Source of the DNA: Escherichia phage UPEC03
Direction: 5' to 3' (one strand)
Sequence record: MW250785
Length of the DNA stretch: 64,000 nt
In this document: piece after piece, positions 7,710-37,487 of the stretch
How the letters are laid out: the number at the start of each line of letters is the position of its first letter
Position numbering within the stretch: the stretch's first letter is position 1
Translations under genes and position numbers: made by a program
Notes under the pieces: generated by a model
Seen by the model: the letters and a program-made list of their open reading frames with translations, nothing else
Told to the model about the DNA's origin: nothing
Database searches by the model: none

Positions 7710-9956
7710 TTAGATTTTGACTTCTTTTTCTTCCAGGACGATTTCACATTCGAATGATGTGGTTTCCCAGACTTTCCAGAAATCGGATGGAATATTATCT
7801 TCTTTCGGAAGAATATCTTTTGCAGCGATAGAAACTTTGGTTTCTTCGAAGTCCAGATCCGCGAACCATGCATGGGCTACTACAACACCGTACATTACGC
7901 GACTTAAACGGGCATTCAGTTTACGGACTTCCTGAATCGTTGCCTTTGTCTGCTTATCAAGATACTCGACTACCTGATCTTTGTCAAGCGCATCCAGTTC
8001 AGATTTCACCTGATCGTAAGCCCACAGGATAATCAGGTCGCCGTTGTTCAGTTTCTTCTTACCTTCGTCACGTTTCGCGACGGTAGCCGCTACAGCAGGA
8101 AGGGAGGAAACACCCTTGACTTTCACGTTCAGTTCTTTCGACATGTAAACATCAGTCGATTCTGTGCGCTCAACCTTCGGAGAGAACCCGTAATCACGAA
8201 TATCCTGTTCAGACAGCCATTCACCCGCTGCATCACCAAAGCGCTGTTTCAGCCCTTCTGCGTTGCGCAGTCCGATCGCGTTGTCACGGAAGAACTTCAT
8301 AACCTTCTGACGGCCTTTCAGGATTTCCAGACGCACGTTATCAGTCACGAACTCTTTACCGCTTAACCCGCGAGTCATGCCACGGTTAACCAGAGGCAGA
8401 GAGGTAAAGTCTACCAGTACCGACATACGGTCATCACCGATTTTTTCCAGCGGCTTGATAGTCAGGCCAGAAGCGCGAAGGTTTTTCAGTGTCGGAATAT
8501 CAGTTTCCAGCGGCAGAACTTTCACGTTCACGATACCATCTTTAACGATGGTGAAGTTACGCACCTGCTTAGTTTCGATTTTTTCCGGCAGACCGAATTC
8601 TTTCTGTTTGCTTTCTGGGATAGTCACATACCCTTCCAGATCCGTGTTGATGGAAATGTTAGGACGGGAACTGTTACCCACCAGATGTTTAACCGATACT
8701 TTGGTTGTGGTCTGGGTAAATTTCGGTGTCCAGACTTCATGCGCTACCATTTGCGCCGCCAGTGCTTTACGTTCTTCTGGGATTGCAGCGTTTGCGATCT
8801 GTTCGGTCAGTTGATCCAGTGTATCATCTTCTTTCTGTACAGTCTGACGGCCTGTGCGGTTATACGCCCAGTGCTCAGAAGACAGGTCGATCACTGTGTC
8901 AGTTTGTGCCAGCAGTTCGAGCGCATCAACCAGAGTGAACGCGTTTTCGTCTGGAACCATGTTGTAATCAATACCATCAACGAAACGCTGTGATGGATCT
9001 ACAACAGCCTGTGCAATCAGGTCTTTCGCGTTGGAGTAGTCCTGTTTGGTAAAGCAGTTGTCATACGCCTTGATCAGACGGACATCACCCAGCTTTTGAA
9101 GCACTTTCCATGCCAGATCAGGGTTCATTGTGTGCAGTGCATGATAAAGCACGACATACAGAACTTGCTGTTCGCTGGCGATGTTCGGATCGAATCCGTC
9201 AACATCATTAATCGCGTTTTCACCCAGCGCCCAGATGTTTTTGATGTGTTCTGGAACTAGCACAACACCGTTTGCAGCGTTCAGGACATACACGCACCCT
9301 TCGTCCAGGTAGATCGCATGGGTAGCATCAGCAACTTTGACTTCGATACGCGCGGAAGTCTGCGCGGTGATGATTTCGTTAAATGCTGGTTCGTATGCGT
9401 CGAAACCTTCAACGAATTTGTGCAATGCGTTGGTTGCTTCTGCCATTTTTTCCAGCAGAGGACGGTTTACATAATAACCGTATTCCAGGAACGCGATACT
9501 GTTGAAAGTCAGTGGCAGAACCGCACACGCTTTCAGAATATCATCGGTACGCCAGCAGTTATCATAACCATCAGTCAGGAAGATCAGGCTGTTCAGGTTG
9601 CCGTTTTCAGATTGCAGATCGGTAGCGATTTCCGCAGCCAGATTCAACGGCTCAACAAAGCCAGTACAACCCGTAGGTTTCAGGTAACGGTCGATAGCCG
9701 CGCAGATGTTAGACAGGTCAGAGACATTGCTAACCTTCTCACCACGGAACACCGTGCCGTAATCGCCTTTGCTGGAGAAGTACAGGATCGAAACGGTGTC
9801 ATCCTGTTTAACCAGACTCGCCAGATTTGCTTTCAGGTGTTTACGGATCTTAGGCAGTTCGTTGTACATTGAACCGGATACGTCACACACGAAAACGTGG
9901 TTTGTCGGGGTTGGCTTCGATACAGCGTTTTTGAATTCGATATTTGTGATTGACAT
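7710..9956 (-). CDS. von Willebrand factor A (vWA) domain protein, 748 aa (CobT-like?)
   Basis: N-terminal MIDAS-like motif VFVCDVSGSM (DxSxS) and downstream FLTDGYDN; ATG start; followed by GC hairpin at about 7685-7705. Confidence 0.7.
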   Translation of the reverse strand: MSITNIEFKNAVSKPTPTNHVFVCDVSGSMYNELPKIRKHLKANLASLVKQDDTVSILYFSSKGDYGTVFRGEKVSNVSDLSNICAAIDRYLKPTGCTGFVEPLNLAAEIATDLQSENGNLNSLIFLTDGYDNCWRTDDILKACAVLPLTFNSIAFLEYGYYVNRPLLEKMAEATNALHKFVEGFDAYEPAFNEIITAQTSARIEVKVADATHAIYLDEGCVYVLNAANGVVLVPEHIKNIWALGENAINDVDGFDPNIASEQQVLYVVLYHALHTMNPDLAWKVLQKLGDVRLIKAYDNCFTKQDYSNAKDLIAQAVVDPSQRFVDGIDYNMVPDENAFTLVDALELLAQTDTVIDLSSEHWAYNRTGRQTVQKEDDTLDQLTEQIANAAIPEERKALAAQMVAHEVWTPKFTQTTTKVSVKHLVGNSSRPNISINTDLEGYVTIPESKQKEFGLPEKIETKQVRNFTIVKDGIVNVKVLPLETDIPTLKNLRASGLTIKPLEKIGDDRMSVLVDFTSLPLVNRGMTRGLSGKEFVTDNVRLEILKGRQKVMKFFRDNAIGLRNAEGLKQRFGDAAGEWLSEQDIRDYGFSPKVERTESTDVYMSKELNVKVKGVSSLPAVAATVAKRDEGKKKLNNGDLIILWAYDQVKSELDALDKDQVVEYLDKQTKATIQEVRKLNARLSRVMYGVVVAHAWFADLDFEETKVSIAAKDILPKEDNIPSDFWKVWETTSFECEIVLEEKEVKI

Positions 9957-10292
9957 TTAAATTTTCTCGTATTTGAATTTTTCTAAAATTTCGTTAACTT
10001 TATTGCTTACTGCTTCGACTGTACGATCACACCCGAACTTACGCGCCAGGAGTTCAACGTATTCATCCATCGTAGTGAGTTTGGATTCTGCAACGTCAAA
10101 CGCAAGCGCATACATTACTGGATTCAATACTCGAACGATTTGGAGAGTATACTCGTTCAGTTCAAAACGTTCAAGATATTTTCGCAGAGAAAATACATCA
10201 AACGGTGCGGGGCGATCCTGGCTAAAGGGGATCGACTCCCCTAATGCATAGCGAGGCATAACAACACAGACTTCGGTTTTTAACTTATCCAT
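9957..10292 (-). CDS. Hypothetical protein (111 aa)
   Basis: ORF immediately upstream of the vWA gene, adjacent stop/start. Confidence 0.45.
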   Translation of the reverse strand: MDKLKTEVCVVMPRYALGESIPFSQDRPAPFDVFSLRKYLERFELNEYTLQIVRVLNPVMYALAFDVAESKLTTMDEYVELLARKFGCDRTVEAVSNKVNEILEKFKYEKI

Positions 10293-10804
10293 CAGTGATG
10301 ACTCTTTGATGTGTGTTCAAGGTTACGGAAGATGTTTCCATGTTCCAGTTGAGTTCCGATCGGGCCGCATTCATCGGAGTACGTGAATTCATAGATAAAC
10401 ACGCCGTCCTGATTGCCATACTTCGTGTTGTACTCTTCATACAACCACATTTTGATCAGAGCGTCTTTCTCTTCTGTGTCCAGATCGTACCAGTCTCGCC
10501 CGTCATACGCAAGCGCAATTTGAGGGTTTGAACGGTAGCGGGTTTCTGCGCTTTCTTCGGTTTCCCAGTCATAGCGTTTATCGTCGTAGAACGATTCAAA
10601 GCTATTACCCAGATGACCGCCTAAGTCACGGTGAACATGATTGACCACTTCTTCCGCTGTTAACGGAGGATTGTAGTAACCGCAGTTCGGAACGCAATCA
10701 CCCATCATTTCGCGCAGGTTGTCGATATTAGTCGGATCTTTCGGGAACCGGACGATGAAACTACTTGATGAACTGTTGCTCACAAAACCAGAACGGATTT
10801 TCAT
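10292..10804 (-). CDS. Hypothetical protein, conserved-N-terminus family (MKIRSGFVSNSSSSSFI...)
   Basis: Paralog of 6384-6857 in the first 17 aa; divergent acidic/aromatic C-terminus. Confidence 0.55.
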   Translation of the reverse strand: MKIRSGFVSNSSSSSFIVRFPKDPTNIDNLREMMGDCVPNCGYYNPPLTAEEVVNHVHRDLGGHLGNSFESFYDDKRYDWETEESAETRYRSNPQIALAYDGRDWYDLDTEEKDALIKMWLYEEYNTKYGNQDGVFIYEFTYSDECGPIGTQLEHGNIFRNLEHTSKSHH

Positions 10805-11863: not shown

Positions 11864-11916
11864 GGTATGTTCCTTTTCAGTTTCGTTTCGGTAAAGCTAA
11901 TGTATCACTATCCTGG

Positions 11917-12453
11917 TCAGTATGCAATGTTTAATTTTGCAAATTTACCAAAATGTTTTATCGCTTCCCGATCGTATGCTTTTGCAGCCTCGTATTCGTC
12001 ACGATAGGAACCGATATGTTTAACCTTGCCGTCAATCTTTATCTGTGCAATGTAACGTATTCCAGTAGGTTGATCACGTACACATACACCCTTGAATCGA
12101 CTGGTTGCTACTCTTCGTTTAGTCCGGTTCTGACAGTTTCGGGATTGATCCGCTTCACGCAAGTTATCAATCCCGTCGCCAGCCTCAACACCATTTTTAT
12201 GATCAATCACATCAGGCAGTTTTCCGGTTGCAACGTAGTAGATGATTCGATGACGTAGATATCCTTTGCTTTTGAAATAAACGCGGGTATATCCTCCTTT
12301 AATCTTCGAACCTACTTCCTTTCCGATCAAGTCAGAACGTTTGTGTGACGTTCGTATAATTGTCCCCGTTTGTATATCAACAGAAACAGTTTTAAGGAAT
12401 TCGTCAATTCCTTTCTGTTCTTCTTCGATTGTTCTTAGTCCGTTGTGTGACAT
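11917..12453 (-). CDS. HNH endonuclease with C-terminal AP2-like DNA-binding domain (homing-endonuclease-like)
   Basis: HNH-type motif ...VIDHKNGVEAGDGIDNLREA...; AP2-like FKGVCVRDQPTGIRYIAQIKIDGKVKHIGSYRDEYEAAKAYD; paralog at 26069-26593; overlaps Dcm stop by 19 nt. Confidence 0.75.
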   Translation of the reverse strand: MSHNGLRTIEEEQKGIDEFLKTVSVDIQTGTIIRTSHKRSDLIGKEVGSKIKGGYTRVYFKSKGYLRHRIIYYVATGKLPDVIDHKNGVEAGDGIDNLREADQSRNCQNRTKRRVATSRFKGVCVRDQPTGIRYIAQIKIDGKVKHIGSYRDEYEAAKAYDREAIKHFGKFAKLNIAY

Positions 12454-13358
12454 AACACCTTCTTGATTTGTTTTGCTATAGCCTCGATTACTGGTATTGA
12501 AACAGAATTACCTGCTTGTTTATACGCTTGCATCTTGCTTTTGTTGATAATAAACGAATCTGGGAAACCCTGCAAACGAAAACACTCACGGGGAGTAAGT
12601 CTTCGGGGGTTCTTTCCTTCCTGCAATACCAGACATTGAACACCATCTTTATAGTAATTTGCAGTGATAGTCCCAGTGTGCGTAGAATCGCTTGTGACGG
12701 CCTGATAACCGAAACCCTTACCGTTTGCCTTATTTCGTTCCTTACGCTCTCTAAAGCCCTTCCATGCGTTATCTGACAGGGTGAACGAATCATCAGCATC
12801 TTCGAGGATGTCGCCTACGCGTGTAGGGGTACGCGGGGGAACCGGAAACGAAAAGAATACATCATCCAGGAAGCAGACAATAAACACGCGTTCCCGTCTT
12901 TGGGGTAGTCCGAAATCCTTTGTGTTCAGGCGTTGATAGAATACGTTATATCCTTCGGCCTCCAGAAGCCCGTAAATCGTTTTAAACGTCTTCCCCTTGT
13001 CATGGGTTAGCAGTTCAGGCACGTTCTCAAAGAACAACACACGGGGCTTTTTAGCGCGTATAATGCGGAGGATTTCGAAGAACACCGTACCGCGTACATC
13101 ATCAAAGCCCAGTTTCAATCCGGCTTTACTGAACGCCTGACACGGGAACCCCGCGAGCAGGATATCATGATCAGGTACTTTGTTTTCATCAATGGCGAAT
13201 AGATCACCCTGTAGGTTATCATCGCCCCAGTTTTCGATATATGTTTGCTGTGCGAACTTGTCGATTTCAGACGTTAAAAGGCATTCGACACCGCCGAACG
13301 CCTTATCAAATCCTAATCGAACCCCGCCCACACCAGCGCAGAGGTCAATTATTTTCAT
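12435..13358 (-). CDS. DNA (cytosine-5)-methyltransferase, Dcm-type
   Basis: Motif I DLCAGVGG, motif IV GFPCQAFS, ENV motif FFENVPEL; 307 aa. Confidence 0.85.
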   Translation of the reverse strand: MKIIDLCAGVGGVRLGFDKAFGGVECLLTSEIDKFAQQTYIENWGDDNLQGDLFAIDENKVPDHDILLAGFPCQAFSKAGLKLGFDDVRGTVFFEILRIIRAKKPRVLFFENVPELLTHDKGKTFKTIYGLLEAEGYNVFYQRLNTKDFGLPQRRERVFIVCFLDDVFFSFPVPPRTPTRVGDILEDADDSFTLSDNAWKGFRERKERNKANGKGFGYQAVTSDSTHTGTITANYYKDGVQCLVLQEGKNPRRLTPRECFRLQGFPDSFIINKSKMQAYKQAGNSVSIPVIEAIAKQIKKVLCHTTD

Positions 13359-13857: not shown

Positions 13858-14855
13858 TTGTAATACCCCACAACATGATCGCGGTATACGCGTTCGATGA
13901 AATCGTTCCAGAATTCGCGGTCAACTTCTTTCGGATATGTTGAAATCGCTGCAAGCCGTTCGACTTCGCCCATGACTTCTTCCAGCTTTTCCTGTACGGT
14001 TGCGAACGGTACGCCGCCAGCTTTAACCAGTTTCAGGAATGCGCTATCAGGCAGAGGATAAACGATATCACCATCTTTGTAAATCTGGATCAACTGCATA
14101 CCACCGCGCAACGCGTGACTTAAAGCCTTCCAGTCGATGCCGTTGTTGGCTTCTGCTTGTCGTGCGCGTTCTCCGTATTCATCCCAGAGTTTGTACACTG
14201 ACTTACGCATTTCATCGGCTTTGATCGTGAACTGGAATTTACGCCCCAGCACTTCATAGAAGTCCTGACAACCAGATTTCATTGTCGTGTCGGTAACGAA
14301 TCGGCAGAACTCGTTTGTAGGGAAACGATTCTTGATGTCAGACACTTTCACTTCACGCGTATAGCGTTTCATATCTGGTGTGAATTCCTGAATACCACCG
14401 ATCGTTTCGGTTTCTTTCAGTACATCGACAACTTCGCGCAGTGCAGCCAGTCGGGAACCTTTCACACCATATTTTGCGGCTTGCTTGCGAACATAACCGA
14501 ACAGGCCAGTTAGTTCAGTGGTGTAAAAACGCCAGCGGTTAGCGCGGATATACTGCCAGATTTCAGAGTTAGCGATCAGCTTGTCATCCGAAGCGTGAAG
14601 CATATCGAGCGCTACGGTATCACCATCACACGCAAGGCTGATAAACTTAGTCAGACTATACAACTGACGATCAACGTCGTCTACGGTGTTTTTAGAGCTT
14701 TTATCGCCCGTGCTGGTGTCGATAGACTTCTTCGCAGTGCCTAACAGGATTTCGCGAGGATGAGGGAGATAGATCCCTTTGTAGTCTTTATCGCTTGTTG
14801 GTGTTTCCAGTCCGTAAAGATGGGATCCAAAAATCATTTCAGTAATCATTTTCAT
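13854..14855 (-). CDS. Pol-beta superfamily nucleotidyltransferase-domain protein, function unknown
   Basis: N-terminal GSHLYGLETPTSDKDYKGIY matches the G[GS]x9-13Dx[DE] NTase signature; ATG at 14855 (listed 14870 start is TTG) overlaps HNH stop as TAATG. Confidence 0.6.
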   Translation of the reverse strand: MKMITEMIFGSHLYGLETPTSDKDYKGIYLPHPREILLGTAKKSIDTSTGDKSSKNTVDDVDRQLYSLTKFISLACDGDTVALDMLHASDDKLIANSEIWQYIRANRWRFYTTELTGLFGYVRKQAAKYGVKGSRLAALREVVDVLKETETIGGIQEFTPDMKRYTREVKVSDIKNRFPTNEFCRFVTDTTMKSGCQDFYEVLGRKFQFTIKADEMRKSVYKLWDEYGERARQAEANNGIDWKALSHALRGGMQLIQIYKDGDIVYPLPDSAFLKLVKAGGVPFATVQEKLEEVMGEVERLAAISTYPKEVDREFWNDFIERVYRDHVVGYYK

Positions 14856-15613
14856 TATACAAATCTCCAATAAAACCCTTTATGAGTTTTTCTTTTACCG
14901 TTACAGCATGAACTTACATGCCCTTTGTTATACCCCATTTCAACGGCTTCCACAATACCACCATTTAAAATAGTTTCTCTTTCTGTTTTGATACATTTCA
15001 TAATCAAAGGTTTTATCAATTCCGTCTTCTTTTGTGAAATATTAGCTAATGCAATTACATTTCTGATATCAGATTCACTCATTAAATCAGAAATCTTCTT
15101 TCTTAACCATACATAGCCTTGACTTTTGGCAAGTTTGCCGGAGCAACATTCATGAATATGACTAGGGTTAAATCCACGCAATTTCATTTCTTGCCGACCG
15201 CCTAATATGATAATCTCGTCTCCTGTTTCAAGGTTGAATCCGACAACTGGAATTATTTGCCGTTCCGACATTTTCTTTCTCGCTTCTTTCGTGAATATTG
15301 TAAGAGATTTTAATTTTCTCGCGTCGCTCATTTGCGAAGATGTCGTTTTGTATTTCTTAGTATTATGAGACATACGGAAAAAAGCATATCTCATTTTATC
15401 ACCAGCATACTTAGCAAGTAGATGATGAGCAAGATAATGCTCTTTATATGTTAAATATACTAAATTTTCGGGTTCATCAGTACCACCTAATGACTTAGCA
15501 ACGATATGGTGTATATCATAACCGCGCTTTCTATACTTTTTCGAGTAACCTTTAGGTATATCTCTTCTTTTTGCCAATGTAATTAGTTGGTCGTAAATAC
15601 GCTTATAGTTCAT
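14855..15613 (-). CDS. HNH homing endonuclease-like protein
   Basis: GYDIHHIVAKSLGGTDEPENLVYLTYKEHYLAHH HNH motif; ATG at 15613 with AAAGGAGAG SD (listed start is GTG). Confidence 0.75.
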   Translation of the reverse strand: MNYKRIYDQLITLAKRRDIPKGYSKKYRKRGYDIHHIVAKSLGGTDEPENLVYLTYKEHYLAHHLLAKYAGDKMRYAFFRMSHNTKKYKTTSSQMSDARKLKSLTIFTKEARKKMSERQIIPVVGFNLETGDEIIILGGRQEMKLRGFNPSHIHECCSGKLAKSQGYVWLRKKISDLMSESDIRNVIALANISQKKTELIKPLIMKCIKTERETILNGGIVEAVEMGYNKGHVSSCCNGKRKTHKGFYWRFV

Positions 15614-15743
15614 ACACTCTCCTTTAGGCGTATTTATCACTTAAAATCCGAACACGGTTTCCATAATCATTTTCATCAGAATTCAACCTTTAATGTTTTT
15701 GCGATCCCGCGCAATTCCGCGGTAGTAATAACAGGGATCATAA

Positions 15744-16016
15744 TCATTTCCTCACAGTTTCAAATTCTTCGTCAGATTTCCAGTACACGTTAAAGTTACG
15801 GCAATCGTGGTCGGAAGTCAACGTATATTTTTCTTTTGTTTTCTCGTCGGTGATCACCATCGTTTCATTCTCGATCGAGTCCACACCATAGACGAATACT
15901 TTATCACCGCGTTTATTCAGGAACGCTTCACCTGTTTCAACCAACTGCCAGCAGTTGACGGGTAAACCACCCGCACAGATCGGACGGTTTACGAGGCAGT
16001 AAGGACGTTTAATCAT
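15744..16016 (-). CDS. Hypothetical protein (90 aa)
   Basis: ORF with ATG start. Confidence 0.4.
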   Translation of the reverse strand: MIKRPYCLVNRPICAGGLPVNCWQLVETGEAFLNKRGDKVFVYGVDSIENETMVITDEKTKEKYTLTSDHDCRNFNVYWKSDEEFETVRK

Positions 16017-16207: not shown

Positions 16208-16285
16208 TTTTCTTCCTTTTCATTATTCATGCGGTATGTGTATATAATACAAAAGCCCTCACGCGAACGCAAGGGCTTTTTTAAT
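16208..16285 (-). promoter_or_regulatory. Terminator-promoter-leader module (copy 2 of 6)
   Basis: Minus strand AAAAAAGCCC-TTGCGT-N17-TATTAT after NatV stop; hairpin 16251-16282. Confidence 0.45.
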
Positions 16286-16291
16286 CTTTTA

Positions 16292-17348
16292 TCAGAGTCC
16301 CGTGAAAGCTACAACGATTTGATAGTGGTCATCGAAGAATTCCCCTTGTCGTTGTACGACCTCATGTAAGGGCATCCAGAACGCCTCTAACGCATCGTCA
16401 GAACCGCCCATAATGCGGGGCAGACTACCATCATTGTTAGGCTCTAACTTGATGTACTGCGCCACAGTCGGTTTTGAGAAGTGTACGGAACGCTTCGGAT
16501 GATCGAACAACATCGAATTGCGGATTGAACCACGGATAACCTTTTCAGGAACCTTGATCCGTACCTCTTCGAGCAGTTCGCGGATCGCACAATCCAGGAA
16601 CGTTTCATTTGCGTTTTTGTGTCCGCCGGGAAGGGCTAACGCGTCTTTACCTGGGGCGAACTTACGACGAATTACCAGCAGGTGATTGTTGCACACAACC
16701 ACACTATCACCCGTGCAACAGTTTAGCGCGTCGGGGTATGGGTAGTTTTTGAATTTCTCCAATTCGCTTTCCCATTTCTCGTATTCGTAGAATAAACGCC
16801 AGAACGTGTCTTCCATCATCCATTTGTCGATATAATCAACGGTTGCTTGAGGAACAAAGCGCAACAGTTTCTTATCCCACCCGTTTTTATGGTTAAAGAT
16901 AATCGGACGCAGATCGGTTGCTGATAGATCCTTGCCGTTAATCTGGACAGGTGGAACTGGTACGTGTGTCCATCCGAACGCTTTAAGCCAGTATGAACCT
17001 GCATCTTTTTCGTAACCGTAGATAGCGATTTTGTCGCCTTTGGTTTCCCTGATAGCAGTACGAACAGAGGTTTTCCATTTCTCTTCGTTGTAAAGATAAT
17101 CTGGAATGTGCTCAAACTGAACACGAACAACATCTTCGATCGGGAAGTTAGCGTTTAACCATGAGAAGATCATGGTTTGACGCTCACGCGCCGTCAGCGG
17201 GTTTAAAACGTTAGGGTAAGCATATGCTGAACCCAGAAGGATGTAAACGATCTTTGCTTCTCCGAGTGCTTTACGCACCATTGCTGCATGACCATTATGG
17301 AAGGGTTGGAATCTGCCAATTACGACAGCTTTATCAAATTGTTTCATA
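16292..17348 (-). CDS. natV: Bifunctional NMN adenylyltransferase / Nudix hydrolase (NatV-like)
   Basis: N-terminal cytidylyltransferase motif GRFQPFHNGH; C-terminal Nudix box GGHKNANETFLDCAIRELLEEV; ATG at 17348 with GGAG SD (listed start is GTG). Confidence 0.8.
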
Positions 17349-17520
17349 ACGTGCTCCACGTTTAAAGGTTAATCATAAAACAGACGCAATCACCAATACA
17401 CCAAGAAAACCGCCAATAAAGCCGAAGAATAGCGAAATGAAGATAGTAAGGATGATCTGTTTTATGTTCATTGTAGTATTCTCGTTCGGAGAAAGCCCCC
17501 GCTCTGGGGGCTTTAAACCC

Positions 17521-18447
17521 TTATTTACGAGAATCGAAAATCACTTTACCAGCGTAATCAGAACCCATGACAGTTTGAGGTACACCGCCCTGATATTTTT
17601 CCGCGATGGTCTGCTGAACATCAAGTTCTTTCCAGCGAATCATTTCTGGTGTAATGGTACGCTGCAACACGGCGTTCGCTTCGGCTTCTTTCTTAGCCGC
17701 ATACAGACGGGCATCAGCATCACGCTCGTTAGCCTGTGCAGCATTGCTACGGGCTTCTTTATCGGCAATTGCCTGAACAACTGCCTGTTGAGCGATTTGC
17801 TCTTTACGTGCCAGTTCTGCTTTCTCTGCGTTCACCTGTTCTTCACGAATTTTCGTGTTTTCAACCTGCTTCTTGATCGCTTCCGGCAGGTCGATATCCT
17901 GCAAGAATACCTGTTTCACGGTGTAACCGTAAGGGCGGGCATACTCTTCAACTTCCTGCTGGATCGCGATCTGTAGCTGGCTTTGAACTTCTGCATTATA
18001 CAGATCCTGTGCTTTCGGTACAGATTTACCGAACTCACGGACAGTTGACAGAAGTTTTTCAGTCACATATTTATCCAGCGCCTGATCCTGACTACCCGCA
18101 TTGATACGGTTGATCGGGGCTTTGCTACCATCGAACTGTAACATCACGGTCATATCCACAGTGGATTTGAATTTATCCTGGGACGGAACCTGCAATTTGT
18201 CAAACTTCATTGCGATGTCTTTGGTGTTGAACACCTCGAAATCAGCCAGTGGATTTACCAGGTGGAAACCAGGCAGAACAGGCTTCGGTGAAACTTTACC
18301 CATGAAGGTTTGAGTTTTTACCGTACCATCCTGAACGATAGTGTACGAGTTCGGAACCAGCCACAGAGCGGCGATTACGCCCAGAGCGATCAGTGTGGTT
18401 TTCTTCGGGTTGTTTACGATAGTGTTTAAGTTCATCATTATTTCCAT
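17521..18447 (-). CDS. SPFH / Band 7 (prohibitin, HflC/K-like) membrane protein
   Basis: N-terminal TM segment LIALGVIAALWLV, SPFH-like core, A/E/K/Q-rich coiled-coil C-terminus. Confidence 0.7.
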   Translation of the reverse strand: MEIMMNLNTIVNNPKKTTLIALGVIAALWLVPNSYTIVQDGTVKTQTFMGKVSPKPVLPGFHLVNPLADFEVFNTKDIAMKFDKLQVPSQDKFKSTVDMTVMLQFDGSKAPINRINAGSQDQALDKYVTEKLLSTVREFGKSVPKAQDLYNAEVQSQLQIAIQQEVEEYARPYGYTVKQVFLQDIDLPEAIKKQVENTKIREEQVNAEKAELARKEQIAQQAVVQAIADKEARSNAAQANERDADARLYAAKKEAEANAVLQRTITPEMIRWKELDVQQTIAEKYQGGVPQTVMGSDYAGKVIFDSRK

Positions 18448-18508
18448 TGGGTTTATGTTTCAATTCGATAGTTATTCTATCATCACTTTTTCGCTTGTCA
18501 AACTCTTT

Positions 18509-18898
18509 TTAAGAAAGTTTTGTCAGCTTGTAAATCGTTTGATAGCACAAGCCTTTGATCTCGTCCAGGACGTTCTTCAATGAACTATCTACTGAATCAT
18601 AGATTTCGTTGGCTTCATCGGCTATTTTACGGAGATACGCGACCGTGTCAAGCACATTTTCTGTTTTTAATACGGGTTTGTATCGACCAGTAATGCCTAT
18701 ATGGATTTCGGTGAATTTATCAACCAAATCCTGCATATCTTCGTAAAACCCTTCAAATGCTTTATGCTGTGAATATGAACCAGTCGCAAAATGTGCGCTG
18801 TGCATATAGGTTACAGACATTAAGCAAGTGCCAATAAAGGCATCAATTTTACTCGCGGTATCGCGTTCTGTTACTTCGTTAAACGTCTGCATCTTCAT
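18509..18898 (-). CDS. Ferritin/Dps-like protein (tentative)
   Basis: HSAHFATGSYSQHKAFEGFYEDMQD resembles the Dps ferroxidase-site helix (two His 12 residues apart, then FE..YE..D); shorter than typical Dps. Confidence 0.4.
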   Translation of the reverse strand: MKMQTFNEVTERDTASKIDAFIGTCLMSVTYMHSAHFATGSYSQHKAFEGFYEDMQDLVDKFTEIHIGITGRYKPVLKTENVLDTVAYLRKIADEANEIYDSVDSSLKNVLDEIKGLCYQTIYKLTKLS

Positions 18899-24712: not shown

Positions 24713-26059
24713 TTAAAAGTTCTCTTCGACGAATGCAGCCAGTCGCCCACGATATACGGTATCCAGGATCACATGACTTGAATGACCGTACTCTTTAAGT
24801 TTTTCAACCGCATACACAAAGCCGTTGTTAACAGCAGTGTTGCGCGGGTTGTCAATCTGTTTAATGTTCCCGCATAGTATCAGAAGGGTGTTCTCACCGC
24901 AACGGGAAATGATGGATTTGATTTCGTGATTGCTCAAGTTTTGACATTCATCAACAATCAGAACCGAACCTTTACCCGGATCAGGATGCCCGATTGAGCG
25001 CCCACGGAAGTAATACAGGCTAGGGAACTGGACAACGTTTTTCTCCAGCAGCCCTTCTACGTATTTGTCAACTTCCGGTTGATCCTTAAACAGAATGTTC
25101 AGGCTCGTAATACATGGTTCTACAGCAGGACGCAGTTTTTCGCCAAGAGTACCAGGTAAGAACCCGATTTCGCCCGACAGAGGGCTATCTGCCTTGACAT
25201 ACATCAGGTTTGCGAAGTGTCCCGCGTTTACCATGTGCATTGCACCAGCAACAGCCAGCATGGTTTTACCTGAACCCGCCGCGCCCATGATGGTCACAAC
25301 GTCATTGTTTTTGTCCAGAATAGCATCAACGAATGACGCTTGCAGAGCATCGCGAGGCTGAATTGTTTTCATCAGCTTACGCTTTAACGCCTGTTCGTGC
25401 TTAATAGGCAACACTTCAAGCTGAAACTCTCCAGCATTCACCACACGCCCTACAATCTCACCACACGATAGAATGTATTGGTTAGGGTAGAAATCCGCGT
25501 CAGGAAGCGATGAATACGTTATAACGGCAACAGGCCCGACATACTCCAGGACTTCAACAGTTTCCCAGAACAGAGGCAGGTCGATATAACCTGAATACAA
25601 CACATCACTATCTTTCAGCGAGTCATCGCCAGTGTATTGAAGAACCGAACAACCTTTAGACATCGCGATCAACAGCATGTTAATGTCACGAGTCACCAGA
25701 GTTGCGCCCTGCTGAATACAAGTTGCAATGATCCGCGCATCCTGTTTATCCAGAGGGAATTCTTCGGTGCCGTCATAATCGACGATTTTCAGTGTTACGC
25801 TTTCCGGTACTGCTGGGTTCGATAAGTTTAACGAAACCCCTGTTTGGGTAATTGCTTCATAATTTTGTCCCAGGATTGCTTTGGACAAAAGCCGGATCGC
25901 CAGTCGTGCTTCATGAGCGGTTCGCTCTTTGCTTTTCAGGTGATCCAGTTCTTCCATCGTTGCAGCGGTGATAATGATTTCGCTGTCAGGTTCGATGTAA
26001 GAATAGATTGAATATGGGTTACTAATCAAAACATTGGTGTCTAATACGTATTTTGACAT
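24713..26059 (-). CDS. phoH: PhoH-like ATPase with N-terminal PIN domain
   Basis: N-terminal YVLDTNVLI (PIN-like); Walker A GAAGSGKT; Walker B LIVDEC. Confidence 0.8.
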   Translation of the reverse strand: MSKYVLDTNVLISNPYSIYSYIEPDSEIIITAATMEELDHLKSKERTAHEARLAIRLLSKAILGQNYEAITQTGVSLNLSNPAVPESVTLKIVDYDGTEEFPLDKQDARIIATCIQQGATLVTRDINMLLIAMSKGCSVLQYTGDDSLKDSDVLYSGYIDLPLFWETVEVLEYVGPVAVITYSSLPDADFYPNQYILSCGEIVGRVVNAGEFQLEVLPIKHEQALKRKLMKTIQPRDALQASFVDAILDKNNDVVTIMGAAGSGKTMLAVAGAMHMVNAGHFANLMYVKADSPLSGEIGFLPGTLGEKLRPAVEPCITSLNILFKDQPEVDKYVEGLLEKNVVQFPSLYYFRGRSIGHPDPGKGSVLIVDECQNLSNHEIKSIISRCGENTLLILCGNIKQIDNPRNTAVNNGFVYAVEKLKEYGHSSHVILDTVYRGRLAAFVEENF

Positions 26060-35625: not shown

Positions 35626-36008
35626 TTAGGCAATGCCCCGAAAGACAGCAGCCCCATACGATGATCGTTATCTGATTCACCAGTGCTGAATTCAAATTCT
35701 TCACCGCTGATACTGATAGCGCGGAAACCGTCTTTCAGGTATGGCAACAGATACAGAGGGATCAGCATCATGTTTGAATCGTCGCTCCACTTACGGAAGC
35801 CCAGATTTTTCATTTCTTCCAGCGTCAAATCATTCGGATCGACGGGTTCGAAATCAGGGGAAGCGTAAAGGCGTCCAGGCAGATCGCGAATATTTTTCAC
35901 GGTGAATGAATCACCCCAGGACTGATACACGGTAGGTTCAGCGGCGCGGGTTGCGGTAGCCAGGAGGATCATTTGACAGATTTGAAAAGTTGTTGCTTTT
36001 GGTTTCAT
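35622..36008 (-). CDS. Secreted protein (128 aa)
   Basis: Signal-peptide-like N-terminus ICQMILLATATRAA. Confidence 0.45.
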   Translation of the reverse strand: MKPKATTFQICQMILLATATRAAEPTVYQSWGDSFTVKNIRDLPGRLYASPDFEPVDPNDLTLEEMKNLGFRKWSDDSNMMLIPLYLLPYLKDGFRAISISGEEFEFSTGESDNDHRMGLLSFGALPK

Positions 36009-36418
36009 GATGTATATCCCACAAGTTTAGTCAGTAAATTCCCCATAGTCTTACGCGCATGATCGCGGATCTGGCTATACGGAACATATTTGAAGTCATC
36101 CATTTCAGTAATGGTTCGACCATTTTTAACGAAGGTTGAAGCACAAACACATTTTTCTGCTTCGGGGTAATTATTACCCACATATACGAATAACACAAGC
36201 TCTTTTTTACTCGTATAATCAATCAGACCCAGGCTCAACAGTTCGTGTTGTTCAACTACAACGCCCGTTTCCTCGAAGCATTCACGGATAGCAGCATTGA
36301 TCGGGGATTCGCCTTTTTCGATATGCCCCTTTGGGATGTCCCAATGAGGCGTTTCGGTTGCGTGGCCCATTAAAACGCTGCCGTTATTCAGGAAGAGAAT
36401 ACCAGCAGACCGTTCCAT
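36005..36418 (-). CDS. Nudix hydrolase
   Basis: Nudix box GHIEKGESPINAAIRECFEETGV. Confidence 0.75.
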   Translation of the reverse strand: MERSAGILFLNNGSVLMGHATETPHWDIPKGHIEKGESPINAAIRECFEETGVVVEQHELLSLGLIDYTSKKELVLFVYVGNNYPEAEKCVCASTFVKNGRTITEMDDFKYVPYSQIRDHARKTMGNLLTKLVGYTS

Positions 36419-36938: not shown

Positions 36939-37224
36939 AATGTTCTTCGTAATCCTCGCATTCTGGGAGATAGGTTTCGCAGAACATACACAGCGTGAAG
37001 AATGTAGGCTGGCGAATTCCGATATTATCGGGTAAGTACATCCAGAACGTGTTAGCAAACACGATGAACGTTTTCAGGTTTTCAACGGTTACGGTACTGA
37101 CACCATCATAACCGGATTGAGCAATTGCGCGTTCCAGGGGAACAGGGTATTGCTCGCAGTAATCGACGTAATGATCGCTTGTTACAAGCGCATTAGCCGC
37201 TTTTACGAGATCGGTAATTTTCAT
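36928..37224 (-). CDS. Hypothetical protein (98 aa)
   Basis: ORF with ATG start. Confidence 0.4.
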   Translation of the reverse strand: MKITDLVKAANALVTSDHYVDYCEQYPVPLERAIAQSGYDGVSTVTVENLKTFIVFANTFWMYLPDNIGIRQPTFFTLCMFCETYLPECEDYEEHYGE

Positions 37225-37487
37225 TCAATATATCCCCAACGAATTTTTACGTTATCTTCTGACGCCGGACTTGTAGGAGTTGGGTATGGATAACTTTGCG
37301 CTTCCCACAGATAAACAATGGCGTGTTTTGTCAATTCTTCGATAACTTCATCGAAAGTACCGACACTGGTTTGTAAAGGCAACGAGAAAGGTTTATCGTT
37401 GGTTTCTACTTGAGCGATTGGCCCATCTACCAAGATAACACGAACCGTTGTGTGCTCAGACATATGAGCATAGATTTTGTTTTTCAT
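37221..37487 (-). CDS. Hypothetical protein (88 aa)
   Basis: Coupled ORF. Confidence 0.4.
   Translation of the reverse strand: MKNKIYAHMSEHTTVRVILVDGPIAQVETNDKPFSLPLQTSVGTFDEVIEELTKHAIVYLWEAQSYPYPTPTSPASEDNVKIRWGYIE

What the first reader, a model, noticed from the sequence alone, without database searches (positions are those of the whole stretch)
16292..17348. NatV-type NMNAT-Nudix fusion: NAD+ salvage capacity
GRFQPFHNGH (adenylyltransferase) plus GGHKNANETFLDCAIRELLEEV (Nudix box) in one 352-aa protein matches the bifunctional NMNAT/Nudix enzyme reported from T4-like vibriophage. With a partner NadV it would rebuild NAD+ and could counter NAD-depleting defences. No NadV-sized gene is in this window. 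A 26-codon hydrophobic ORF (MNIKQIILTIFISLFFGFIGGFLGYW, about 17391-17471) precedes it.
Basis: partly seen in the sequence, partly recalled or inferred. Interest (0 to 1): 0.5.

Follow-up and report, generated by a model that had tools for sequence, protein, structure and literature searches.

The report
Known phage NAD+ salvage enzyme (NatV)
This is an intact copy of a well-known phage enzyme that makes NAD+ from NMN and breaks down ADP-ribose; its partner gene nadV lies about 73 kb away in every close relative, and the pair is already catalogued as the NARP2 counter-defence pathway, so the finding is correct but ordinary.

Summary
The gene is real. It fuses an NMN adenylyltransferase domain to a Nudix domain, and all catalytic motifs are intact. 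It aligns end to end with the solved bacterial NadM-Nudix enzymes (E 3e-54) and with Vibrio phage KVP40 NatV (40% identity, E 6e-86).

The window comes from a Pseudotevenvirus of the RB16/RB43/GAP161 group of T4-like phages. Close relatives already annotate this gene as "bifunctional NMN adenylyltransferase/NUDIX hydrolase".

There is no nadV homologue in the window. The relatives I checked by name, including the closest, carry nadV about 73 kb away on the other strand, and record counts across the genus match almost one to one. The RB43 pair was described in 2006. KVP40 NadV+NatV was shown to overcome Thoeris, DSR2 and aRES and was named NARP2. Table S2 of that study lists the GAP161 and RB16 Nampt as "Nmnat-associated".

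The upstream hydrophobic ORF is real and conserved, but it has 32 codons (17373-17471), not 26.

Verdict: observation confirmed, interpretation supported, already known, low interest.

The parts
16292..17347 (-). natV gene: bifunctional NMN adenylyltransferase / Nudix (ADP-ribose pyrophosphatase-type) protein, 351 aa plus stop
   Evidence: ORF and sequence. Family and structure matches. Same length as the annotated GAP161_126. 100% aa identity to Enterobacter phage CYPEBC003.
16778..17347 (-). N-terminal NMN adenylyltransferase (HIGH-type nucleotidyltransferase) domain, about aa 1-190
   Evidence: Pfam CTP_transf_like aa 9-63. NCBIfam NMNAT models cover aa 1-189. Aligns with 2qjo and 2qjt and with the archaeal NMNATs 1f9a and 1ej2.
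17288..17317 (-). GRFQPFHNGH, the (H/T)xGH ATP-binding motif, aa 11-20
   Evidence: Position. G11, R12, F13, P15, F16, H17, G19 and H20 are invariant in five phage genera and identical in 2qjo, 2qjt and 1f9a.
16907..16927 (-). LSATDLR, the SxTxxR second nucleotidyltransferase motif, aa 141-147
   Evidence: Position. S142, T144 and R147 are invariant. Aligned with fsSTaiR of 2qjo and ySGTeiR of 1f9a.
16295..16717 (-). C-terminal Nudix domain, about aa 211-351
   Evidence: Pfam NUDIX aa 215-336, E 5e-14. Aligned colinearly with the Nudix halves of 2qjo and 2qjt.
16556..16624 (-). Nudix box G242-x5-E248-x7-R256 E257 L L E260 E261 V R I264
   Evidence: All catalytic Glu and Arg residues are invariant. 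The usual Gly of 'EExGU' is Arg here, as in the active Synechocystis enzyme 2qjo (eetRl), and Asn in Francisella.
17354..17357 (-). GGAG ribosome-binding site, 6 nt before the natV ATG
   Evidence: Read from the sequence. The same RBS position is annotated in Miller and Miro.
17373..17471 (-). 32-codon hydrophobic ORF, predicted to span the membrane once, 25 nt upstream of natV; function unknown
   Evidence: Conserved in Miller (Pseudotevenvirus) and Miro (Slopekvirus). Window versus Miro has 14 of 19 differences at third codon positions and none at second. Annotated as a CDS in phage Fraggle. No Pfam or PHROG hit.
17492..17514 (-). Conserved GC hairpin between the SPFH gene and the small ORF; a possible partial terminator or RNA-stability element
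   Evidence: Fold -18.8 kcal/mol, z -2.75. The stem is conserved while the loop differs in Miller and Miro. It has no T-tract, so the terminator scan did not call it.
16251..16280 (-). Intrinsic terminator immediately after natV
   Evidence: 13-bp stem followed by TTTTGTATTAT. Fold -18.9 kcal/mol, z -4.35, 0 of 200 shuffles as good. A terminator is annotated at the same place in Miller and Miro.
18474..18501 (-). Sigma-70-type promoter-like site (TTGACA-16-TgnTAGAAT) upstream of the SPFH gene; likely start of an SPFH - small ORF - natV transcription unit
   Evidence: 11 of 12 consensus matches with an extended -10 TG. The identical site is conserved in Miro. Consensus match only; transcription was not shown.
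17521..18447 (-). Upstream neighbour: SPFH/band-7 lipoprotein gene (context only, no shown functional link)
   Evidence: Pfam Band_7 2.5e-20 and phrog_200. Adjacent to natV only in Pseudotevenvirus and Slopekvirus, not in LPCS28 or KVP40.

Best explanation
The gene encodes a NatV/NadM-type bifunctional enzyme.

The N-terminal domain adenylylates nicotinamide mononucleotide: NMN + ATP -> NAD+ + PPi. The C-terminal Nudix domain splits ADP-ribose into AMP and ribose-5-phosphate. The KVP40 enzyme also acts on NAD+ and NADH; this is from my recollection of Lee et al. 2017, which I could not read here.

The partner is the phage's own nicotinamide phosphoribosyltransferase NadV. It lies outside the window, about 73 kb away on the other strand in the relatives checked. 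NadV makes NMN from nicotinamide and PRPP. Together the two genes form the two-gene salvage route called NARP2.

The likely cycle runs as follows. Defence NADases release nicotinamide and ADP-ribose. The Nudix domain turns ADP-ribose into ribose-5-phosphate. Host Prs turns that into PRPP. NadV and NatV then rebuild NAD+.

The pathway keeps NAD+ available during infection and so blunts NAD+-depleting defences such as type I Thoeris, DSR, SIR2-HerA and aRES.

Shown here: gene integrity, domain architecture, motif conservation, homology, and the presence of nadV in relatives. Inferred: the enzymatic activities, the ribose-5-phosphate recycling loop, early expression and the anti-defence effect in this phage.
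For: - Full-length match to solved NadM-Nudix structures: 2qjo E 2.7e-54 and 2qjt/2r5w E 5.4e-45.
- Full-length match to KVP40 natV, 40% identity, E 6e-86.
- Pfam CTP_transf_like plus NUDIX; NCBIfam bifunctional NMNAT/Nudix, full length, 1e-73; phrog_395, full length, 1.5e-96.
- The HxGH, SxTxxR and Nudix-box residues are invariant across five Straboviridae genera.
- nadV, with NAMPT_N and NAPRTase domains, is present in Citrof4, Fraggle, GAP161, CYPEBC003 and others.
- Across the genus, 62 records hold natV at >=80% nt identity and 63 hold nadV by megablast.
- Literature: RB43ORF138c and ORF255w were described as this pair in 2006.
- Literature: every NadM/NatV phage also has NadV.
- Literature: KVP40 Nampt+Nmnat abolish Thoeris and DSR2 defence and raise NAD+, and cancel aRES defence.
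- Literature: GAP161 and RB16 Nampt are tagged 'Nmnat-associated' in Table S2.
Against: - No activity of this protein, or of any Pseudotevenvirus or Slopekvirus homologue, has been measured. I found no report of one in the text searches I ran.
- The genome this window comes from is not in the phage collection. The best match is 97.5% identity over 94% of a 24-kb stretch. Its nadV is therefore inferred from relatives.
- Scores fall below all NCBIfam equivalog cut-offs (248 bits against 354-449). The protein belongs to a phage branch, not to any curated bacterial subfamily.
- natV and nadV are far apart and on opposite strands, so co-regulation is unproven.
- NARP2 makes NAD+ whether or not a defence system is present. 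Anti-defence may therefore not be its only or main benefit.
Confidence: 0.82

Rival explanations
1. General metabolic booster rather than counter-defence. NadV and NatV raise NAD+ simply to support rapid phage replication: redox supply for nucleotide synthesis, and substrate for T4-type ADP-ribosyltransferases. Any anti-defence effect would be a by-product. This overlaps with the main explanation and differs only in which benefit is selected for.
For: NARP2 overproduces NAD+ even in cells without a defence system. The pair was first interpreted as a pyridine nucleotide salvage pathway among nucleotide-metabolism genes. Here natV sits in a block of early-type metabolic genes such as tk, nrdC.11-like and PhoH.
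Against: NARP2 is described as costly and somewhat toxic, which argues for a specific selective pay-off. Heterologous expression is enough to defeat four kinds of NAD+-depleting system.
Confidence: 0.3
2. NatV acts mainly without NadV. It would use host-derived NMN (from NAD-dependent ligase turnover or nicotinamide riboside uptake) or NaMN, or it would serve mainly as an ADP-ribose pyrophosphatase that clears ADP-ribose.
For: natV and nadV are about 73 kb apart on opposite strands. The Nudix half is the more conserved half of the protein. Bacterial NadM-Nudix enzymes work inside larger host pathways (established knowledge of the family).
Against: The two genes co-occur strictly. Every NatV/NadM phage has NadV, and 94% of KVP40-type Nampt phages have Nmnat. 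Within this genus the counts are 62 natV records against 63 nadV records. The phage also has a separate T4 NudE-type Nudix enzyme.
Confidence: 0.08
3. The Nudix domain's important targets are not free ADP-ribose. They would be ADP-ribose-derived immune signals (gcADPR, His-ADPR) or NAD caps on RNA, which would make the protein a signal- or cap-degrading enzyme as well.
For: There is only circumstantial support. Nudix enzymes cut pyrophosphate bonds in many ADP-ribose derivatives; NudC, for example, cleaves ADPR-PP. KVP40 NARP2 fully abolished type I Thoeris. Nothing I tested excludes this.
Against: No evidence points to it. The domain is closest to ADP-ribose pyrophosphatase-type NadM Nudix domains. 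NAD+ restoration alone explains the published phenotypes, including DSR2 and aRES, which use no such signal.
Confidence: 0.05
4. The gene is a decaying or inactive remnant.
For: None, apart from scores below the NCBIfam equivalog cut-offs.
Against: The ORF is intact and full length, with an RBS and a terminator. All catalytic residues are invariant. 435 of 467 phage records cover at least 80% of the protein.
Confidence: 0.02

Closest known systems
Vibrio phage KVP40 NatV (KVP40.0162), the Nmnat of the NARP2 pathway, with its partner NadV/Nampt
   Same: Same two-domain architecture and nearly the same length (351 vs 341 aa). 40% identity over the full length, with identical HxGH, SxTxxR and Nudix-box residues. 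Also from a T4-like phage (Straboviridae). A Nampt-type nadV lies elsewhere in the genome.
   Different: Different genus and host (enterobacterial Pseudotevenvirus versus Schizotequatrovirus). The gene neighbourhood differs: here SPFH gene - 32-aa ORF - natV, while in KVP40 natV follows hypothetical genes. No biochemical or anti-defence test has been done on this orthologue.
RB43ORF138c / RB16 / GAP161_126 'putative bifunctional NMN adenylyltransferase/NUDIX hydrolase' (Pseudotevenvirus orthologues)
   Same: Orthologous gene at the same map position. 98.9% nt identity to GAP161, 99.7% to Citrof4 and Fraggle, and 100% aa identity to Enterobacter phage CYPEBC003. The pairing with an NAPRTase-family gene on the other strand was noted for RB43 in 2006.
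   Different: Essentially nothing at the gene level. This genome is a distinct isolate, at best 97.5% identical over 94% of a 24-kb stretch. Nearby it differs by a homing-endonuclease swap.
Bacterial NadM-Nudix (Synechocystis slr0787, PDB 2qjo; Francisella tularensis, PDB 2qjt/2r5w)
   Same: Colinear full-length alignment (E 3e-54 and 5e-45). Same motifs, including the non-Gly residue in the 'EExGU' position of the Nudix box and the FDxPxRS stretch after it.
   Different: Scores are below every NCBIfam equivalog cut-off for the bacterial subfamilies. It is phage-encoded and paired with a phage NadV rather than set within a cellular pathway.
NARP1 (Adps + Namat)
   Same: Same outcome: the phage rebuilds NAD+ after NADase defences.
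   Different: Different enzymes and intermediates. NARP1 goes through ADPR-PP, while this route goes through PRPP and NMN. No phage was found with both. NARP2, but not NARP1, overcomes aRES.
T4 NudE (e.1) monofunctional Nudix hydrolase
   Same: Nudix fold with reported ADP-ribose activity. A NudE-like gene is also present in this window at 36005-36418.
   Different: NudE is 137 aa with a single domain and no adenylyltransferase part. It belongs to a separate Nudix clade.

Membership tests
NadM-Nudix / NatV bifunctional NMNAT-Nudix family | N-terminal HIGH-type nucleotidyltransferase domain with the GxFxPxHxGH motif | tested here: met
   GRFQPFHNGH at aa 11-20. Pfam CTP_transf_like. Identical motif in 2qjo, 2qjt and 1f9a. 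Invariant in five phage genera.
NadM-Nudix / NatV bifunctional NMNAT-Nudix family | Second nucleotidyltransferase motif SxTxxR | tested here: met
   LSATDLR at aa 141-147. S142, T144 and R147 invariant. Aligned with the same motif in 2qjo, 2qjt and 1f9a.
NadM-Nudix / NatV bifunctional NMNAT-Nudix family | C-terminal Nudix domain with the catalytic Nudix-box residues (E, RE, EE) | tested here: met
   Pfam NUDIX 5e-14. E248, R256, E257, E260 and E261 invariant. The Gly of EExGU is replaced by Arg, as in the active Synechocystis enzyme.
NadM-Nudix / NatV bifunctional NMNAT-Nudix family | Both domains in one polypeptide, colinear with characterised members over the full length | tested here: met
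   aa 4-349 align with 7-338 of 2qjo. aa 7-351 align with 4-341 of KVP40 NatV. NCBIfam PRK05379 models match aa 3-351.
NadM-Nudix / NatV bifunctional NMNAT-Nudix family | Score above an NCBIfam equivalog cut-off (membership of one curated bacterial subfamily) | tested here: not met
   Best score is 248 bits against a cut-off of 397, and all seven PRK05379 models fall below their cut-offs. This excludes membership of those narrow bacterial subfamilies, not of the wider family. The protein fits the phage family phrog_395 over its full length at 1.5e-96.
NadM-Nudix / NatV bifunctional NMNAT-Nudix family | NMN adenylyltransferase and ADP-ribose pyrophosphatase activities | not testable with these tools
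   Needs enzyme assays. Reported for KVP40 NatV (cited) and for the bacterial enzymes (established knowledge).
NARP2 (phage NAD+ reconstitution pathway 2) | Homologue of KVP40 Nmnat encoded by the phage | tested here: met
   40% identity, E 6e-86, full length.
NARP2 (phage NAD+ reconstitution pathway 2) | Nampt (NadV) homologue in the same phage genome | tested here: inconclusive
   Absent from the 64-kb window. Present in the close relatives checked, about 73 kb from natV: Citrof4, Fraggle, GAP161, CYPEBC003 and others. It carries NAMPT_N and NAPRTase domains. GAP161 and RB16 are listed as Nmnat-associated. The rest of this particular genome is not available to me.
NARP2 (phage NAD+ reconstitution pathway 2) | No Adps/NARP1 in the same genome (reported mutual exclusivity) | not tested
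   Nothing in the GAP161 annotation of the region matching window positions 1-40080 is named Prs or Adps. The whole genome was not examined.
NARP2 (phage NAD+ reconstitution pathway 2) | Restores NAD+ and rescues the phage from NAD+-depleting defence systems | not testable with these tools
   Shown only for the KVP40 genes expressed heterologously.

The most novel reading that the evidence does not exclude
The most novel reading my evidence does not exclude has two parts, either of which could hold alone. First, the highly conserved Nudix half might also destroy ADP-ribose-derived immune messengers (gcADPR, His-ADPR) or NAD caps on RNA. That would make NatV a two-pronged anti-defence enzyme. 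Second, the conserved 32-aa membrane peptide and the SPFH lipoprotein encoded just upstream might form a functional unit with NatV in Pseudotevenvirus and Slopekvirus. Neither part has positive support here.
Probability: 0.05. Interest if true: 0.5.

Novelty: already known. Interest (0 to 1): 0.1.

Why it matters
It adds little. The gene shows that this enterobacterial T4-like phage very probably carries the NARP2 NAD+ salvage pair. That may help explain or predict its ability to infect Klebsiella, Enterobacter, Cronobacter or Citrobacter strains armed with NAD+-depleting defences (Thoeris, DSR, SIR2-HerA, aRES), which is of some practical use when choosing therapeutic phages.

The gene, its partner, the biochemistry in KVP40 and the counter-defence role are all published. 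This phage group is already listed among NARP2 carriers. The one real gap is that no Pseudotevenvirus or Slopekvirus orthologue has been tested experimentally.

Tried and rejected
- **nadV in the window.** The two NadV-sized ORFs are a PIN+PhoH protein and a tail-collar protein.
- **Source genome.** I tried to identify the exact genome so I could read its nadV directly. The best match is GAP161, at 97.5% over 94% of 24 kb, so the genome is not in the collection.
- **Small peptide search.** tblastn with the 32-aa peptide against all phages gave no match. The low-complexity filter probably masks it. I judged conservation from three aligned loci instead.
- **Small peptide families.** Pfam and PHROGs gave no hit.
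- **A dedicated natV promoter.** The window has no sigma-70-like site between the hairpin and the small ORF. Miro has a perfect one there. I did not pursue middle or late promoter motifs because they cannot be validated with these tools.
- **The KVP40 paper.** I tried to read Lee, Li & Miller 2017 by DOI and by PMC id, and it is not held. Its results are cited second-hand or marked as my own recollection.
- **Searches not run.** I did not run the large protein-database, metagenome or structure-prediction searches. Full-length E-values of 1e-54 to 1e-96 against characterised relatives had already settled the identity.
- **SPFH linkage.** I considered and rejected a functional link between natV and the SPFH gene based on adjacency. 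The adjacency holds only in two sister genera and is absent in LPCS28 and KVP40.

Full report
**1. What is there**

On the minus strand an ORF runs from a possible GTG at 17359 to the stop at 16292. The credible start is ATG 17347, which has GGAG six bases upstream. This gives 351 aa, the length annotated for the orthologue GAP161_126 (1056 nt).

Both quoted motifs are present: GRFQPFHNGH at aa 11-20 and GGHKNANETFLDCAIRELLEEV at aa 241-262. A third motif, LSATDLR (SxTxxR), lies at aa 141-147.

**2. Identity of the protein**

| Search | Result |
|---|---|
| Pfam | CTP_transf_like (aa 9-63, 6e-8) and NUDIX (aa 215-336, 5e-14) |
| NCBIfam | seven 'bifunctional NMNAT/Nudix' models match end to end, best 1.2e-73, all below their equivalog cut-offs (248 vs 397 bits) |
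| PHROGs | phrog_395 over the full length, 1.5e-96 |
| PDB | 2qjo, Synechocystis NadM-Nudix (aa 4-349, E 2.7e-54); 2qjt/2r5w, Francisella NadM-Nudix (E 5.4e-45) |
| KVP40 NatV | 40% identical over 348 aa, E 6e-86 |

Because the NCBIfam scores fall below the equivalog cut-offs, this is a phage branch rather than one of the curated bacterial subfamilies. phrog_395 is named 'cytidyltransferase', which explains that uninformative label in many GenBank records.

In the PDB alignments the HxGH and SxTxxR motifs and the Nudix box are aligned and conserved. The Gly expected in 'EExGU' is Arg here and also in the active Synechocystis enzyme, so the substitution is typical of the family.

In an alignment of five Straboviridae genera, every catalytic residue is invariant and the Nudix half is the more conserved half. 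The gene is intact and shows no sign of decay.

**3. Source genome**

The natV/small-ORF segment (window 16292-17471) is 99.7% identical to Citrobacter phage Citrof4 and Klebsiella phage Fraggle_ER53, and 98.9% identical to Cronobacter phage GAP161. GAP161 is classified as Pseudotevenvirus, Straboviridae. A 24-kb stretch matches GAP161 at 97.5% over 94%, so the exact genome is not in the collection. The protein itself is 100% identical to that of Enterobacter phage CYPEBC003.

**4. The partner gene**

The window holds no NadV homologue. Its two ORFs of NadV-like size are a PIN+PhoH protein and a tail-collar protein.

A tblastn with NAMPT finds Nampt genes in 2016 phage records. They include relatives of this phage such as Dev_CS701, whose nadV lies at 148.5 kb while its natV lies at 75.8 kb. 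That protein has NAMPT_N and NAPRTase domains.

Megablast with that nadV gene finds it in 63 records. They include Citrof4 (natV 99,313; nadV 172,478), Fraggle, GAP161 and CYPEBC003. By comparison, 62 records hold natV at >=80% nt identity.

nadV is therefore a standing gene of the genus. It lies about 73 kb from natV on the opposite strand, roughly 25 kb beyond the right end of this window.

**5. What is already published**

- Nolan et al. 2006 listed RB43ORF138c (NUDIX + cytidylyltransferase) and RB43ORF255w (NAPRTase) as orthologues of the KVP40 salvage pathway. They also noted the co-existing T4-type NudE.
- Genome notes on pseudo-T-even phages repeat this.
- Surveys state that every NatV/NadM phage also has NadV.
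- Osterman et al. showed that KVP40 Nampt+Nmnat abolish type I Thoeris and DSR2 defence and raise NAD+. They named the pair NARP2 and found it in about 1.1% of phages.
- Their Table S2 lists the GAP161 and RB16 Nampt as 'Nmnat-associated'.
- A 2026 preprint shows that NARP2, unlike NARP1, also cancels aRES defence.
- I could not read Lee et al. 2017. The substrate preferences I give for the KVP40 Nudix domain come from my own recollection.

**6. Mechanism**

Shown: an intact bifunctional gene with all catalytic residues, and a Nampt partner in relatives.

Inferred by homology:
- NadV: nicotinamide + PRPP -> NMN.
- NatV N-terminal domain: NMN + ATP -> NAD+.
- NatV Nudix domain: ADP-ribose -> AMP + ribose-5-phosphate, which host Prs could return to PRPP.

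The net effect would be NAD+ maintenance during infection and escape from NAD+-depleting defences. The main rival differs only in emphasis: a general metabolic boost rather than counter-defence. NatV acting independently of NadV, a signal- or cap-degrading role for the Nudix domain, and gene decay are all unlikely. The reasons are given in the rivals section.

**7. Local anatomy**

natV is followed by a strong intrinsic terminator at 16280-16251 (-18.9 kcal/mol, z -4.35).

Upstream, 25 nt away, lies a 32-codon hydrophobic ORF at 17373-17471. It is conserved in Miller and in the Slopekvirus Miro. Window versus Miro shows 14 of 19 nucleotide differences at third codon positions, none at second positions, and only conservative replacements. 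It is annotated as a CDS in Fraggle. It is very probably a real small membrane protein of unknown function, and it is absent upstream of natV in LPCS28 and KVP40.

Between this ORF and the SPFH/band-7 lipoprotein gene (17521-18447) is a conserved GC hairpin without a T-tract.

The nearest good sigma-70-like site is TTGACA-16-TAGAAT with an extended TG at 18501-18474, upstream of the SPFH gene. It is conserved in Miro. This suggests an SPFH - small ORF - natV unit. These are consensus matches only.

**8. Verdict**

The feature is already known at the levels of sequence, annotation, family biochemistry and counter-defence role. Interest is low. The only open point is the lack of direct experiments on the enterobacterial orthologues.

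Noticed in passing
window 17373-17471 (-): A 32-aa hydrophobic ORF, predicted to span the membrane once, lies between the SPFH gene and natV. It is unannotated in GAP161, Miller and Miro but conserved, with a coding-type substitution pattern across two genera. It has no family match, and its function is unknown.
   Followed up: partly
window 17476-17520 (-); L004 (Klebsiella phage Miro) 1842-1869: Miro has a perfect 12/12 sigma-70 consensus promoter directly after the conserved hairpin. Its -10 box overlaps the small ORF's ATG, so transcripts from it would carry natV but not the small ORF. The window phage has lost the -35 box through a 3-4 nt deletion. Relatives may therefore regulate natV differently.
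   Followed up: partly
window 14855-15640 (-): An HNH/AP2-type homing endonuclease ORF (phrog_655, 3e-33) sits where GAP161 has three small hypothetical genes (GAP161_121-123). Window 14831-15759 does not align with GAP161. This is a mobile-element swap about 650 bp downstream of natV.
   Followed up: partly
window 36005-36418 (-): A second, monofunctional Nudix hydrolase of 137 aa, the T4 NudE-type gene (GAP161_171). The phage therefore has two Nudix enzymes that may both act on ADP-ribose. This redundancy was remarked on for RB43 in 2006 and is still unexplained.
   Followed up: partly
window 24713-26059 (-): A 448-aa protein with an N-terminal PIN domain fused to PhoH. It is annotated only as 'PhoH family' in relatives.
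   Followed up: no
window 17521-18447 (-) and 18509-18898 (-): An SPFH/band-7 lipoprotein gene lies next to an rI.-1-like gene that some records annotate as 'starvation-inducible transcriptional regulator', with rI beyond it. Membrane- and lysis-timing genes thus directly abut the NAD+ gene. The SPFH-natV adjacency is conserved only in Pseudotevenvirus and Slopekvirus.
   Followed up: partly
window 5960, 11912-12457, 37224-37481 compared with L001 (GAP161): There are several small gene-content differences from GAP161. GAP161 9920-10591 (GAP161_104) is missing at window 5960. The segments at window 11912-12457 and 37224-37481 do not align. This is typical of hyperplastic regions in T4-like phages.
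   Followed up: no
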